Source: Eledone cirrhosa (taxonomy: Eukaryota). From it: 64,000 bases of DNA. Positions within the stretch are counted from its first letter, which is position 1, and the number at the start of each line of letters is the position of its first letter. The notes beneath the pieces were generated by a model that had not been told where the DNA came from, made no database searches, and saw only the letters and a program-made list of their open reading frames with translations. Both the position numbers and the translations under genes were made by a program. The DNA lies in assembly GCA_964016885.1 (NCBI GenBank), contig OZ024753.1, positions 34,348,001 to 34,412,000 of the forward strand. The letters are read 5' to 3'. Below are positions 2,879-59,635 of the stretch, in pieces.

Positions 2879-3984
2879 CGTTCAAAGTAAAGGACGTCAT
2901 GAATAATACAACATCATATGTCTTGTTTCTAAAAACAGCTCAAGATAGAAGTGGGATAATTTCTGGCCTTGTGCCAATAGTAGAAACATATATATATATA
3001 TGCGTGTGTATAATGATAGCTATGGTCCTCCATATGCGGTATGCCAAAATTAGCACTCAATATTCATACAGAGCAGAGTGTGCCTGAGGGCAGGGAAGTA
3101 AGTCCACTTGATCAACCCCAAAATAAAAAAAAAAAAACATGAAAAAGAAAATCACCTTGGAATGAATTCGAACTCAGATCTGAAAAGAAATGATAAGAAG
3201 TTAACTAAATTTTGATAGACGCTCTTCCGATTCTGACAGTCTACAACCACCATCGAAATCCAAATTTCGTATGTTATTCTAATATAGCCGTCTATTTATA
3301 GATGGACATTTTTCAGCGTTCAAGAAATAGAATAAAATAGAAATAGAATAAAATTATAATTAGAAAAAAAAAAATTAGAACGATGATGCATATAAAAATA
3401 TTAACATTAATTTCCAACGGCAGTTTTGCAGCATCCGTTTTACAAATTGCACAAATTTGCATAAACATTAATTTAATATTATAGTTATTAAGAATAGTTC
3501 ATTACTCTTCCTTTTCTCTTTTCTTGACCGATATTTTGTCTTTTATTTCCTATCAGGTTATTTATTGGATTTTTATATATACATGTATGAGGAAGCGTTC
3601 ACTACACGTAGAAACACCAAGTATTTCACACACACACACACGCACACGCACGCACACGCACAACACGACTAGTTAGGAAATTACAAGTACAATCCATTAA
3701 TGGAACAGTAGTAATATGTAAAACATTCAAAAAATTCTGCATCTAATAACTGCATATATACACATGTACAGATACAAAGCATATGCACATGCACACATAC
3801 AACTCAAAACATACACATCCACACATACAATAATATCCATACCTACACATGCATGCAGACATGCATACATACATACATATCTACCTAGTTGATGTGTAAA
3901 TTCCAATCAGAGAGTCTTGTATCTGTTAGAAACCGACTATCACTCTCTATTGACAAACATTTGTGAAATTATAAAACAAGAAGA

Positions 3985-4647
3985 ACATACATACATACAT
4001 GCATACATACATACATACAGCTATACATACATACATACATATTTATATACATATATATATATATATATATATATATATATATATATATACAGAGATATAC
4101 ATGTATATATATATATCTATTTATATATACAGCTATACATGTATGTATATATACAGATATACATATATACATATATATATATACATATATACATGTGTGT
4201 ATATATATACATATATATGTGTGTACATATATATATATATACATGTATATCTGTATATATATATATATATATACATGTATATCTGTATATATATATATAT
4301 ATATACATGTATATCTGTATATATATATATATATATATACATGTATATCTGTATATATATATATATATACATGTATATCTGTATATATATATATATATAT
4401 ACATGTATATCTGTATATATATATATATATACATGTATATCTGTATATATATATATATATATACATGTATATCTGTATATATATATATATACATGTATAT
4501 CTGTATATATATATATACATGTATATCTGTATGTATGTATGTATGTATATATATATATATATATATATATATATGTACATACACACAGATATAGATGTAT
4601 ATATATATATATATATATATATATATATACACACAGATATACATGTA
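3985..4647. repeat. (TACA)n/(TA)n microsatellite with higher-order catgtatatctg units
   Basis: Directly visible. Confidence 0.95.
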
Positions 4648-4703
4648 TGGGGGGGGGGAGGGGGTAAATTTATTAGTGAGAAATAACAAATTTATATAGA
4701 TTA

Positions 4704-6170
4704 CTAGCATTAAAGCCCGGCGTTGCTCGGGGTCATTAAGTTACCAAAGTTAGGTTGCAGCACTTTTTTGTCTACCAGGCACTGGGTGAATGAATTGCAG
4801 ACCTGGAAGCATGAGCTGCGCCAGCAGTGACAATTGTAGTTTCGCCTATGGATATTATCTCTGTGCAAAAAGTGTTGAAATTTATTGTTTCACAGTACTT
4901 GCGCAACACGCGAGTAGACGATGCCAGCCGAACAACAGAGCTGCGATGGAGTTGTTCTGCATGGTTGTCTGTGTGTTTTCTAAATTTAAGATAGTAGGGA
5001 GGGTTGTGATATGAGGGAGAGTTAGCTGTTGTTTCTAGCAGGTTTAGTGACCTCATAGGGATATGTGTTTTCTAAATTTAAGACAGTAGGGAGTGGTGTG
5101 ATATGAGGGAGAGTTAGCTGCTGTTTCTAGCAGGTTTAGTGACCTCATAGAGGATATGTGTTTTCTAAATTTAAGACAGTAGGGAGTGGTGTGATATGAG
5201 GGAGAGTTAGCTGCTGTTTCTAGCCGGTTTAGTGACCTCATAGAAGATATGTTTTCTAAATTTAAGACAGTAGAGAGGGGTGTGATATGGGGGAGAGTTA
5301 GCTGCTGTTTCTAGCAGGTTTAGTGACCTCATAGAGGATATGTTTTCTAAATTTAAGACAGTAGGGAGGGGTGTGATATGAGGGAGAGTTAGCTGCTGTT
5401 TCTAGCAGGTTTAGTGACCTCATAGAAGATATGTTTTCTAAATTTAAGACAGTAGGGAGGGGTATGATATGGGGGAGAGTTAGCTGCTGTTTCTAGCAGG
5501 TTTAGTAACCTCATAGAGGATATGTGTTTTCTAAATTTAAGACAGTAGGGAGTGGTGTGATATGAGGGAGAGTTAGCTGCTGTTTCTAGCAGGTTTAGTA
5601 ACCTCATAGAGGATATGTGTTTTCTAAATTTAAGACAGTAGGGAGTGGTGTGATATGAGGGAGAGTTAGCTGCTGTTTCTAGCAGGTTTAGTGACCTCAT
5701 AGAGGATATTATTGTTTATCATCTATATATATAAAACTGACTGCACGCCTAACGAAATTTACAGATACATATATTTTAAATAAACTTATATAATTTTGCT
5801 TTTTTTTACGAAATATTTTGCTTGTTTTACGTAGTCTTTAAATAGACTTGTTTTCAAGTAAAAATTATTGTGTTAATGTCATTTTAAACGCTGAGAAAGC
5901 CAGCGTAATTTTTTTAATTTTTGCACGCAGACGCTCAATGTAAACAGAACAAAGGGAAATAACTGATCACTTACGCTCAAAAATCGATACATTATATTCG
6001 ATTTCGTCAGATAGGGCGGGTCAATTTGAAATTATTTTTTTTCCGATGTCTTCGCTAGGGCTCAATGTACAAGTATAGCAATTTCGGTGCAATTCCGTGA
6101 GAGATTCTAAGAGGAGATGTGTGCCAAAAATCGATAGACAGACAGACAACCACAGTTTTATATATATAGA
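4704..6170 (-). mobile_element. Non-autonomous Helitron-like element
   Basis: On the minus strand: A|TCtatatatataaaactgtggttgtctgtctgtc at the 5' end, then a 3' hairpin cccgagcaacgccggg (4716-4731) and CTAG|T. Insertion between A and T with no TSD. Confidence 0.7.
4972..5708. repeat. 91-93 bp tandem repeat, 8 copies, inside the Helitron
   Basis: ttttctaaatttaag recurs at about 4976, 5068, 5161, 5252, 5343, 5434, 5527 and 5620. Confidence 0.95.
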
Positions 6171-6456
6171 TAAGGAACATAGAATCATAACCTGAAATTA
6201 AAATAGTTTATATGTATACTTATTGGTATAAATTTTAGGAAAAGATAGCTGTAAAAGGGAAATAAAATTATGCAGTTCATTAGTAGTAGAATATTAATTA
6301 TAGGTTAACTAATTTAAAAAAAGTGTTATTATAATAATTTCTAAAGTGTATATTAATTACGTTTATAATATTTAAAAGTTCTTCGCAGATTATGATTACA
6401 TGATATAATTAATTCCTGTCGTTTATTTAATAGGATATCCTTAGATTTCATTATTT

Positions 6457-57254: not shown

Positions 57255-58418
57255 TTAATTGTAAGTTTTGATGTTGCTGTTCCACTCATATTTTCTATTT
57301 AATTTTGGTTTTAATTCTTTTATGCTTACTGCCTCTGTAATTTGCCTAAACATTGCGTCTTTTCTGTGTGTGGATTCTATTTTTATTTCTATGCTCTCTA
57401 ATCTACCCCTGTGTTCTGTCTTAGCATGTTGGTAGAGCACAGATGATTCTTTATTATCTTGGAGGTCTCGCCAGTGTTCATTTATTCGTTCCCCTATACT
57501 ACGAGCTGTCTCACCTATGTACACTATATTTTTGTTTCTACATTGTCCTTCAGTACATCTTATGCTATACACTACATTTCTAGTTTTACAGTTAATATGG
57601 GGGCTTATTTTACAGGTTATACATTTCTTATCTATACATGAGGGTCTTTGGAACGGGTATGTCTTGCTAATAAGTGTTTTTACGGAGGTACCAGGTCTTT
57701 CTACTATCTTAATATTGAGATTATGTTTATTTAGGGCCCTTCTAAATTTGTAGGCTAGTTCGCCTCTAGGGGTTGTATTGATGAACATTACACTCTGGTA
57801 TTTATTGCTATCATACCATGAGTTTATTCTATTGGCCTTGTTCCTAGTTCTTTCTATTCTATTCCAAAATTTGCTCCTATACAAGGGGCAGGTCCCATTT
57901 ATGTCATTATTTACCATTTTTTCCCATTTGGTTCTGGCTCCTTTATACACTTTGATTCTATCTCTCATTGTAGCCAGAGAACTGCATACGGTGGATGAAG
58001 TGTTGTATGTGTCTCTCTAGTTCTTCGGGGTTGCACATGCGGGACACATTTCTCATCACCCGTACCAAATCCGCAATCAGTATGTTGATTTTGGTATGGT
58101 CCGAAATGGCCGAGTTTCGGTGGATCAGATGTTTGGAAGTCATGGGTTTGGCATAATGGGAATGGAGGATTTGTTTTTGGTTGTTAATGGTATCTAACCA
58201 GAGCTCTGTGTCTAGTACAGGTAATCGATGGTTGGGGTGTCTACTTGGGTAGTCTATAGTAAATCTAATGCTCTGGTGGATGGAGTTTGCTATTTGCTGG
58301 ATGCTTTCCATTGTGTTTTTCTCTAGTTCCTGACTGTTCTTTAGTGGGGTGTCTTAACTACGATGTTTATATCATCTACGTAGCGGGAGTACATTATCAG
58401 GGTTAAGCTGTCTTCTAA
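57255..58418 (-). pseudogene. PLE reverse transcriptase C-terminus plus GIY-YIG endonuclease, two frameshifts
   Basis: MYSRYVDDINIVV (about 58393-58355); IRFTIDYP...RLPVLD...HYAKPM; SGY; then C-x4-C-x2-C and CKTRNVVYSIRC...YIGETARSIGERINEH...RQITEA...LNRK. Frameshifts at about 58345 and 57962. Confidence 0.9.
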
Positions 58419-58930
58419 TTGACCTCCAAGATAATAAAGAATCATCTGTGCTCTACCAACATGCTAAGATAGAACACAGGGGTAGATTAGAGAGCATAGA
58501 AATAAAAATAGAATCCACACACAGAAAAGACGCAATGTTTAGGCAAATTACAGAGGCAGTAAGCATAAAAGAATTAAAACCAAAATTAAATAGAAAATAT
58601 GAGTGGAACAGCAACATCACAACTTACAATTAAGGACAAAATGAAAACACACACACACATAGAACAAACAACTTACAATTAAGGACAAAATGAAAACACA
58701 CACAAAATGAAAACACACACAGGACAAAATGAAAACACACACACACATAGAACAAACAACCAACCAACAATAAATAAATAAATAAATAAACAAATAGAAA
58801 AATGAACACAACACACACAGACACCCGGATGTGGCGCATGCGCAAACTGAGCACACAACACACACACACAGAAACAAAATGGCGTAGGATAGAAGAAAGG
58901 AAAGGCACAGAAACGAAGAAAGGAATCCCC

Positions 58931-58975
58931 AGTCACTGAAGAGGTCACAGAGTGTGTGACGAAAGGACTATGACT
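58931..58975 (+). ncRNA. Type-I hammerhead (CUA) in the PLE pLTR; mirror copy at 56873-56917 (-) has a G5A core change
   Basis: agtca-CTGAAGA-g-gtcaca gagtg tgtgac-GAAAGgaCTA^tgact. Confidence 0.75.
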
Positions 58976-59446
58976 ATATATAAACAACTATCTGGTTGTG
59001 GAACCAACCAACCAACCAGAAATTTGTAAATTTGTAAATTTATAAATATATAATAAATTGAAGTGAAAGCAACTGGTGCGTGTGTTTCTTATTGGCAACA
59101 TGACCCTCCCAAAGTATAACAATATCGGTTTCAACACACGATTTCAGATAAAGTATCTTGCTAAACAAATTCAGAAACGAAATATATATATATAAATATA
59201 TATATATGTATATATATATAAATATATATATATGTATATATATATAAATATATATATATGTATATATATATAAATATATATATATATATATATATAAATA
59301 TATATATATGTATATATATATAAATATATATATATATATAAATATATATATATATATATGTATATATATATAAATATATATATATATATAAATATATATA
59401 TATGTATATATATATAGATATATATATATATATATAAATATATATA

Positions 59447-59635
59447 TAGGAACCAGTAAGACCCCGACAGCTGAGCTCAAGCCGTTTCGACGGCTAATTC
59501 TGAATTAGCCGTCGAAACGGCTTGAGCTCAGCTGTCGGGGTCTTACTGGTTCCTATTACCCACTCTACTACCTCAAGTATTGAGTACTTTGGTGCGTTAT
59601 GGTCCACCTGGTTCCTTACCACATTTCCTTCGTTA
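59447..59635 (+). mobile_element. Family-B fold-back mini-element
   Basis: Perfect 54-bp arms around a 1-nt loop (59501), plus tail. Confidence 0.85.

What the first reader, a model, noticed from the sequence alone, without database searches (positions are those of the whole stretch)
3053..59590. Shared covarying 'tail' hairpin RCTC-[stem-loop]-T(W)-GAGY-RC marks where the inverted arm stops in many unrelated fold-back elements
Seen: the same fold occurs in otherwise unalignable elements. Examples: ACTC tact/agta TT GAGTAC (family B, e.g. 42094-42119; six copies); ACTC gtcc/ggac T GAGTGC (33489-33510 -); GCTC tgt/aca TA GAGCAC (33879-33901 -, compensatory A-U to G-C); ACTC tgctct/agagca TA GAGTGC (35735-35761 -); ACTC tac/gta TT GAGTAC (36956-36977 +) versus tgc/gta (47795-47815 -); ACTC caa/ttg TT GAGTGC (46725-46746 -); ACTC cagt/actg TA GAGTGC (50206-50232 -). 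Degenerate copies lie at 3053-3079, 41853-41874 and 48150-48175. The upper stem changes sequence freely but stays paired, while the basal 4 bp, the U-starting bulge and the trailing RC are kept. In six contexts (33515, 33906, 35765, family B, 46751, 47823) and at 41843, the opposite inverted arm ends 4-9 nt 5' of this hairpin, usually at a TA. Established: PLE insertions carry a 3' 'tail' missing from the other pLTR copy. Inference: the hairpin is an RNA element, bound by the PLE RT/GIY-YIG protein, that positions internal priming on a TA target, analogous to a telomerase template-boundary element. I do not recall it being described.
Basis: partly seen in the sequence, partly recalled or inferred. 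Interest (0 to 1): 0.9.

Follow-up and report, generated by a model that had tools for sequence, protein, structure and literature searches.

The report
Paired RNA hairpins mark retrotransposon starts
Hydra-clade Penelope-like retrotransposons from many marine animals carry two copies of one conserved stem-loop in their leader, and genomic copies end a few bases before one or the other, which likely marks the two places where the enzyme starts copying its RNA and would explain these elements' puzzling 'tail' and mirror-image ends.

Summary
Confirmed and extended. The hairpin (RCUC-stem-loop-UH-GAGY-RC-U) is real: 13 sites against about 0.1 in shuffles. The fold-back elements are truncated copies of Hydra-clade Penelope-like retrotransposons. 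Among 57 leaders from other organisms, 52 have one or more and 34 have two. It covaries across 34 families, with at least 6 independent U-A/C-G swaps. Tail-less ends stop about 3-9 nt before HP1; tail-bearing ends stop about 3-8 nt before HP2. So the tail equals the hairpin spacing. Tested as a prediction: a 172-nt spacing gave a 171-nt tail, and HP2 was found behind three window families. Inverted insertions carry one tail in 30 of 30 and 8 of 8 cases, on either side of a fixed centre. Best model (0.62): each hairpin binds one RT, and both ends of a cut (TA)n prime on one RNA. It is not a telomerase template boundary, since it lies 3' of the start. A Neptune-like family lacks it. Not in Rfam or the papers searched; binding untested.

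The parts
42094..42119 (+). HP1 hairpin, family B (Hydra-clade PLE; parent ORF 717-719 aa in L367/L368)
41955..42165 (+). Family B insertion: (TA)n, tail-less inverted arm, arm with hammerhead 3' half (42046-42068), HP1, tail ending 4 nt before HP2 of the parent, (TA)n
45171..45196 (+). HP1, family B (fixed-centre subfamily; palindrome 45051-45165, tail to about 45242)
45408..45433 (+). HP1, family B variant with UC bulge (palindrome 45280-45402)
45869..45894 (+). HP1, family B
50038..50063 (+). HP1, family B, G.U in upper pair 2
59562..59587 (+). HP1, family B (palindrome 59446-59556)
46725..46746 (-). HP1, family A (parent ORF 742 aa in L157; HP2 92 nt downstream in the parent)
46663..47111 (-). 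Family A insertion: inverted arms 46751-47111, hammerhead 46804-46850, HP1, tail
35735..35761 (-). HP1, family F35 (arms 35768-36029; HP2 and Hydra-type ORF start in read-through copies L370, L372, L373)
50206..50232 (-). HP1, family F50; tail ends at about 50149, 4 nt before HP2 of the parent
47795..47815 (-). HP1, family F47 (hammerhead 47848-47881; parent L258, L259, L265 with a degenerate second hairpin)
36956..36977 (+). HP1, relative of F47 (palindrome 36847-36916, hammerhead 36861-36894 in the inverted arm)
33489..33510 (-). Hairpin with 1-nt bulge after palindrome 33517-33664 (hammerhead 33553-33582); parent not traced
33879..33901 (-). Hairpin with GCUC/GAGC base after palindrome 33906-34098; parent not traced
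47228..47256 (-).
41853..41874 (+). Degenerate hairpin 9 nt after the arm end of palindrome 41681-41842
48150..48175 (+). Degenerate hairpin (A.C basal mismatch)
3053..3079 (-). Degenerate hairpin, 52 nt before a CA/TA run

Best explanation
The hairpin is a conserved leader element of Hydra-clade Penelope-like retrotransposons, present as a tandem pair (HP1, HP2) between hammerhead and start codon; insertions end about 3-9 nt before either copy, and each copy likely binds one RT-endonuclease molecule and sets a reverse-transcription start just upstream of itself. Shown: the pair, its covariation, two discrete end sites each just 5' of a hairpin, TA microhomology at both junctions, (TA)n on both flanks, tail length equal to hairpin spacing, and one tail per inverted insertion on either side. 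Inferred: the protein cuts both strands of a (TA)n target, and each 3' end anneals to a UA just upstream of one hairpin. Two RTs (likely a dimer on one RNA) make two same-sense cDNAs, the one from HP2 being longer by the tail. Both stop at variable 5' points and are joined head to head by template switch or annealing, which gives the fold-back with a single tail. A cDNA that runs through a tandem transcript keeps both hairpins and the ORF.
For: Pair on the sense strand between hammerhead and AUG in 34 of 57 non-host leaders, one or more in 52 of 57, against 3 of 57 antisense and 1 of 323 ORF windows. Also present in the published Hydra-1_Ajap consensus. Upper pairs 1-3 paired in 54/55, 35/52 and 26/33 against shuffle means 43.2, 20.8 and 13.8 (P<=1e-4 each). 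Pair 1 changes between U-A and C-G 7 times on a 26-row tree, at least 6 forced. Basal GCAC/GUGC flips in L244 and L248. Family M (spacing 172): 14 ends at HP1, 17 at HP2, 3 read-through, 0 other, of 34 copies from a tail-blind query. Family Q: 14, 5, 4 and 1 other of 24. Tail-end-plus-RCTC patterns found 326 places (B) and 282 (F50) against 0 in controls, with HP2 and a Hydra-type ORF start behind them. One tail in 30 of 30 B palindromes, 8 of 8 M pairs and 3 of 3 A insertions. With a fixed asymmetric centre the tail is left 16 times and right 12 times. G.U 37 versus A.C 8 at upper pairs 2-3 favours the sense strand. In vitro, the Poseidon element PAc cuts and extends both strands, starts at two internal sites that bracket the tail, needs RNA to +172 and is predicted to be a dimer (PMC11167929). 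The Hydra protein model's best matches are telomerases, with the alignment reaching its N-terminus (Z 16.5, rmsd 4.5, 302 aligned).
Against: No binding or priming assay exists for any Hydra protein. The Neptune-like family P has the same two-end pattern (7 of 9 inverted pairs asymmetric by my reading) without this motif, and PAc's printed RNA shows none by eye, so the motif is not needed for tails in general. L108 has two tail-bearing arms from different subfamilies, which needs two RNAs. Shared arm variants (30 against 8.7 shuffled, max 21) are mostly subfamily markers and do not prove one template. Folding energy does not tell the strands apart (mean pair probability 0.66/0.68 sense, 0.59/0.47 antisense). 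In family B the minimum-energy fold pairs HP1's 5' strand with HP2's 3' strand. HP2's second upper pair is U.U in 9 of 29. F47's second hairpin is degenerate, yet its tail still ends there.
Confidence: 0.62

Rival explanations
1. The hairpins act in DNA: the GIY-YIG endonuclease recognises them in a single-stranded or extruded intermediate and cuts a few bases 5' of each, so the tail comes from staggered resolution rather than from two priming sites.
For: [quoted passage not shown] Frangieh et al. cite the tail as needed for EN recognition of plasmid DNA in D. virilis Penelope (original not seen). The ends fall at TA, the EN's preferred target.
Against: G.U outnumbers A.C 37 to 8, which needs a single strand. 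PAc starts RT at both tail-bracketing sites on an RNA template. HP2 is absent from the inserted product.
Confidence: 0.14
2. The hairpins direct RNA processing (cleavage or termination) just 5' of each copy, giving two RNA 3' ends that are then copied by ordinary 3'-end TPRT.
For: Discrete ends at a fixed distance from a structure are typical of RNase cleavage (general knowledge). PAc RNA-seq read ends fall on the start sites.
Against: PAc initiation is internal and independent of the RNA 3' end. Random choice between two RNA species would give many two-tail or no-tail insertions, against 0 of 30 (B) and 0 of 8 (M).
Confidence: 0.1
3. The template is antisense RNA and the complementary hairpins stop synthesis, as a true template boundary.
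For: Antisense templating has been proposed for Penelope (PMC3846280 passage). The complement often folds as well.
Against: The G.U over A.C bias, the hammerhead and the ORF are all on the sense strand. The precise ends abut (TA)n and the variable ends lie at the palindrome centre, as expected for priming at the precise ends. PAc uses sense RNA.
Confidence: 0.07
4. The pair is a translational operator or packaging signal next to the AUG, and the ends lie nearby only because the protein sits there.
For: HP2 ends 14-50 nt before the AUG.
Against: The ends track each hairpin to within a few nucleotides while the spacing varies from 70 to 172 nt. A second, translational role is not excluded.
Confidence: 0.05

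Closest known systems
Hydra clade of Penelope-like elements (Craig et al. 2021, PMC8557442)
   Same: The parent ORFs carry all listed diagnostic motifs, a hammerhead and (TA)n targeting. The published Hydra-1_Ajap consensus contains both hairpins; Hydra-2_Amil and Hydra-2_Ajap end with HP1 plus about 25 nt.
   Different: The paper's supplement has no occurrence of 'hairpin' or 'stem-loop', the Hydra section describes no leader structure, and the tail is ascribed to EN resolution.
PAc (Poseidon, Anolis carolinensis) internal initiation (Frangieh et al. 2024, PMC11167929)
   Same: Two internal RT start sites bracketing the tail, both target strands extended, AT-rich target, hammerhead upstream, predicted dimer, RNA needed 3' of the starts.
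   Different: PAc starts within one AC-rich stem-loop inside the ORF, with no repeated motif reported and none of this consensus seen in Fig. S1B. Here a duplicated covarying motif in the 5' UTR lies 3' of each start, and tails are 70-172 nt rather than 30-40.
Telomerase template boundary element (ciliate helix II; PMC4993307)
   Same: A short stem-loop with conserved sequence at its base, next to where a telomerase-like RT acts.
   Different: The TBE is 5' of the template and stops synthesis. These hairpins are 3' of the start, come in pairs, and HP1 is copied.
3'-terminal stem-loops of L2/CR1 LINEs and their SINEs; R2 3' UTR (recalled)
   Same: An element-specific RNA structure that recruits the RT near the priming site.
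   Different: Those are single, lie 5' of the priming site and are copied into every insertion. HP2 lies 3' of its site and is left out.
Non-LTR retrozymes (bioRxiv 10.64898/2026.07.22.740005)
   Same: Short hammerhead-bearing PLE derivatives; L349/L350 is a 257-nt tandem unit with both hairpins.
   Different: The preprint has no occurrence of hairpin, stem-loop or tail. The window's copies are inverted, not tandem.

Membership tests
Hydra-clade PLE | RWK motif at the N-terminus | tested here: met
   RWR at residue 37 in families A and B; RW[KR] in 59 of 61 aligned relatives
Hydra-clade PLE | DKG modified to DKT | tested here: met
   DKT at 117/118; 53 of 61 relatives
Hydra-clade PLE | CxCX5C linker before a C-terminal GIY-YIG domain | tested here: met
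   At 572 (B) and 601 (A); 60 of 61 relatives. Pfam gave no hit for these proteins at E<=0.001, so the EN call rests on motifs.
Hydra-clade PLE | [quoted passage not shown] | tested here: met
   CxxC..E at 670/699 and CxH at 698/726; a single Cys between the two motifs, read from the printed ORFs
Hydra-clade PLE | Canonical hammerhead in the pLTR; (TA)n target | tested here: met
   Cores found by pattern; 48 of 51 scored family A ends followed by a TA- or CA-like run. Family B has a variant core; cleavage untested.
Hydra-clade PLE | RT groups with named Hydra elements in a phylogeny | not tested
   The tree held no named reference sequences
Telomerase template boundary element | Lies 5' of the template and blocks copying beyond it | tested here: not met
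   It lies 3' of the inferred start, and HP1 is present inside tail-bearing copies
Telomerase template boundary element | Stem base bound by the RT's N-terminal RNA-binding domain | not testable with these tools
   The model's alignment to TERT reaches residue 1-2; binding cannot be computed here
Rfam RNA families | Match at gathering score | tested here: not met
   Only a tRNA in the window; only two sub-threshold miRNA hits away from the leaders in 7 loci at E<=1
MITE or fold-back DNA transposon | Fixed terminal inverted repeats and a transposase-encoding parent | tested here: not met
   Arm length and centre vary between copies and the parents encode RT-EN

The most novel reading that the evidence does not exclude
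Hydra-clade PLEs integrate by double-primed reverse transcription: one RNA with two matched protein-binding hairpins loads two telomerase-like RTs, which prime from both ends of a double-strand cut at once and make two same-sense cDNAs that fuse head to head. The duplicated hairpin is a portable, movable start signal that lies outside the copied sequence.
Probability: 0.45. Interest if true: 0.92.

Novelty: new variant of a known kind. Interest (0 to 1): 0.82.

Why it matters
The tail and the inverted ends of Penelope-like elements are named as open problems (PMC8557442), and the one in vitro study found two start sites without a sequence rule for them (PMC11167929). This gives a rule that predicted tail length and the hidden second hairpin in this genome, and it names exact mutants for an existing assay. 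It identifies a small RNA partner for a telomerase-like RT, suitable for structure work. It also gives annotators a marker for the true ends and the clade of very abundant palindromic repeats.

Tried and rejected
A covariance model from 15 non-host hairpins of one length put 10 window sites among its top 12 hits, but weakly (E 0.004-3.4). It missed 7 listed or new sites and gave 2 opposite-strand shadows and 2 unexplained hits; the MAFFT alignment of all 52 hairpins did not align the 5' strand. R-scape was not available, so flank-fixed pair counts and a tree replaced it. Ends in non-host loci were mostly uninformative: 13 comparisons, of which L171 ends 3 nt before HP2 and L194 and L223 end 2-3 nt before HP1; the rest were contig edges, indels or repeats. 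The F35 pattern gave 34 places, mostly CA-run chance: 3 of 12 loci read were read-through copies. No relatives in viral contigs. No RNA holder listed. Family P as the source of the motif was rejected. No earlier findings of this scan matched. Upper pair 5 shows no pairing signal.
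Full report
OBSERVATION. The quoted hairpins are present as described. A scan that did not require upper-stem pairing found 13 distinct sites, all with 3 or more upper pairs; 100 shuffles gave 1.0-1.2 hits without and 0.04-0.10 with that pairing. Five sites are copies of family B. A relaxed scan added the sixth B copy (UC bulge), 48150 and a new site at 47228-47256, plus three one-mismatch hits not followed up. Most hairpins follow a palindrome whose arms hold whole or half hammerhead cores. Rfam has no matching family.

WHAT THE ELEMENTS ARE. 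The window lies in G000, a 3-Gb assembly. Copies of the 46725 family led to L123, a complete insertion: (TA)n, tail-less inverted arm, RT-EN fragment, pLTR, hammerhead, hairpin, tail, (TA)n, and to an intact 742-aa ORF (L157). Families A and B carry RWR, DKT, CxCX5C, CxxC and CxH, the diagnostics of the Hydra clade (PMC8557442 section 11). F35, F47 and F50 also lead to Hydra-type ORF starts. Parents of 33489, 33879, 41853, 48150, 47228 and 3053 were not traced. An AlphaFold model of a relative (pLDDT 91) has telomerase as its best structural match.

THE HAIRPIN COMES IN PAIRS. 120 listed relatives (61 aligned) were used to fetch 94 loci from marine metagenomes and genome bins; these are probably host-animal DNA (inference). 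The motif was on the sense strand in 74 of 94 loci and antisense in 18 (loose pattern). Of 72 ORF starts, 15 with under 150 nt of leader were dropped. Of the other 57, 52 had at least one hairpin and 34 had two, against 3 of 57 antisense and 1 of 323 ORF windows. HP1-HP2 spacing was 55-83 nt (median 63), hammerhead cut to HP1 34-62, HP2 to AUG 14-50. The published Hydra-1_Ajap consensus has both hairpins and ends just before HP1; Hydra-2_Amil and Hydra-2_Ajap end with HP1; Hydra-1_Crog and Hydra-1_Obim show variant stems by eye; Hydra-1_Amil ends without one. HP2 does not occur in the window because every copy there ends before it.

COVARIATION. With the register fixed by flanking letters only, in 55 hairpins from 34 families under 70% identity, upper pair 1 was paired in 54 of 55 (37 C-G, 16 U-A, 1 U.G; shuffle mean 43.2), pair 2 in 35 of 52 (20.8) and pair 3 in 26 of 33 (13.8), each P<=1e-4 in 10,000 shuffles. 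Slid registers gave 9/55, 14/48 and 8/31; pair 5 showed nothing. On a quick IQ-TREE tree of 26 proteins (24 non-host HP1-bearing families and 2 host), pair 1 changes 7 times, at least 6 forced by strong branches, and is always paired. The basal stem flips to GCAC/GUGC in L244 and L248. Among 177 distinct hairpin interiors, G.U occurs 37 times and A.C 8 times at pairs 2-3 (rows not independent). Folding is moderate: pair probability above 0.5 in 14 of 21 HP1 and 16 of 21 HP2, cross-pairing dominant in 2 of 21, and the antisense strand folds nearly as well. In family B the minimum-energy fold is the cross-pairing.

ENDS TRACK BOTH HAIRPINS. Family A (spacing 92), 83 copies: 47 end just before HP2, 28 at HP1 (24 of them scored +1 only because the TA run resembles the ruler), 5 read through, 3 other; the queries favoured tails. 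Family Q (89), mostly incidental copies: 14, 5, 4 and 1 of 24. Three predictions were then tested. (1) Family M, whose HP1 has a long loop, has a 172-nt spacing; a query stopping before HP1 gave 34 copies, 14 ending at HP1, 17 at HP2, 3 read-through, none elsewhere. (2) The family B tail end followed by RCTC occurs at 326 places (control 0); the 20 loci read show HP2 4 nt after the end, mostly followed by a Hydra ORF start. (3) The same holds for F50 (282 places, control 0; 12 loci read) and, in 3 of 12 loci read, for F35. Spacing against tail length: B 78/80, A 92/91, M 172/171, Q 89/88, F35 85/81-85 (end positions set from the earlier calls, with TA ambiguity of a few nt).

ONE TAIL PER INSERTION. 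With a tail-blind query, 28 of 28 two-armed B copies had exactly one tail, and the other two resolved the same way. That query spanned the centre and so picked one subfamily. In that subfamily the asymmetric centre is fixed, yet the tail is left in 16 and right in 12 of 28, so the tail side is set at each insertion and the unit is not copied whole. In the other subfamily the centres differ from copy to copy. Family M gave 8 of 8 and family A 3 of 3. Exception: L108, two tails from two subfamilies. Arms of one insertion share more variants than shuffled pairs (30 against 8.7), mostly subfamily markers.

MECHANISM. Shown: the facts above. From literature: PAc nicks and extends both strands of AT-rich DNA, starts at two internal sites that bracket the tail, needs RNA to +172 and is predicted to dimerise. 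Inferred: each hairpin, with its conserved base, U-H bulge and unpaired RC-U-N-U flank, binds one protein and presents the UA-rich stretch just upstream to a TA-ending primer; two cDNAs from one RNA join head to head. I put this at 0.62. Rivals are DNA-level EN resolution (0.14), RNA processing (0.10), antisense boundary (0.07) and an incidental operator (0.05). The template-boundary analogy fails because TBEs are 5' stops.

LIMITS. The window's Neptune-like family P (clade label from its linker motif, my reading) has two ends 60 nt apart and mostly asymmetric pairs without the motif, so other clades must use other marks. No Hydra dimer prediction and no expression data were obtained.

LITERATURE SEEN. 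PMC11167929: parts 1-2 of 4 of the text and supplements 1-3 (figures as scattered text only; the GenBank file unreadable). PMC8557442: passages, section 11, a supplement search and parts 52-53 of 59. PMC3846280, PMC4209133, PMC4993307: passages. bioRxiv 2026.07.22.740005: parts 1-2 of 5 and a word search. Seven full-text searches listed no paper describing this motif or a hairpin pair. Subscription papers (Pyatkov et al.; Arkhipova 2006; Evgen'ev and Arkhipova 2005) and Repbase notes were not seen and could mention it. LINE/SINE stem-loops and hammerhead numbering are recalled.

VERDICT. A real, clade-wide, apparently undescribed paired RNA element in a known retrotransposon clade, which predicts insertion ends and makes the tail and inverted-repeat problem directly testable. 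Interest 0.82; new variant of a known kind.

Noticed in passing
window 56655-59188 and 36067-36688: Family P, a young PLE (GIY-YIG below Pfam cut-off; ORF about 1270 aa; tandem array in L091) with two end sites 60 nt apart, both reading AATA|TCG, and no RCTC hairpin. The 56655-59188 insertion has a tail on both arms.
   Followed up: partly
L367 leader; non-host loci: Family B's hammerhead core reads UUGAGAA or UUGAUAA instead of CUGANGA, apparently a C3-G8 to U3-A8 swap (numbering recalled); 5 of 63 non-host cores share this form.
   Followed up: no
L349/L350: A 257-nt tandem unit joining the ORF start back to the pLTR and holding both hairpins; retrozyme-like and a possible source of the short family B palindromes.
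   Followed up: no
L108: Inverted insertion whose two arms come from different family A subfamilies, both with tails.
   Followed up: partly
L267 (family M); L258 (family F47): HP1 of family M tolerates an insert of about 50 nt in its loop; F47's second site is followed by a bulge-less GCAC/GUGC hairpin.
   Followed up: partly
window 33300-36700 and 45000-48000: Several PLE families sit end to end within (TA)n runs; each insertion leaves new TA flanks that take later ones.
   Followed up: no
window 34114-34423, 50596-50743, 59667-59823: Palindromes with no hairpin-bearing tail detected.
   Followed up: no
window 51197-52894 (+) and 59996-63313 (+): Two non-LTR retroelement ORF fragments (zf-RVT and RVT_1 hits).
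   Followed up: no
window 2672-2867, 22336-22531, 27502-27687, 34594-34791, 40116-40309 and others; 30543-31920; 40653-40723: A dispersed repeat of about 190 nt in many copies, a tandem array of roughly 80-nt period, and a tRNA-like Rfam hit.
   Followed up: no
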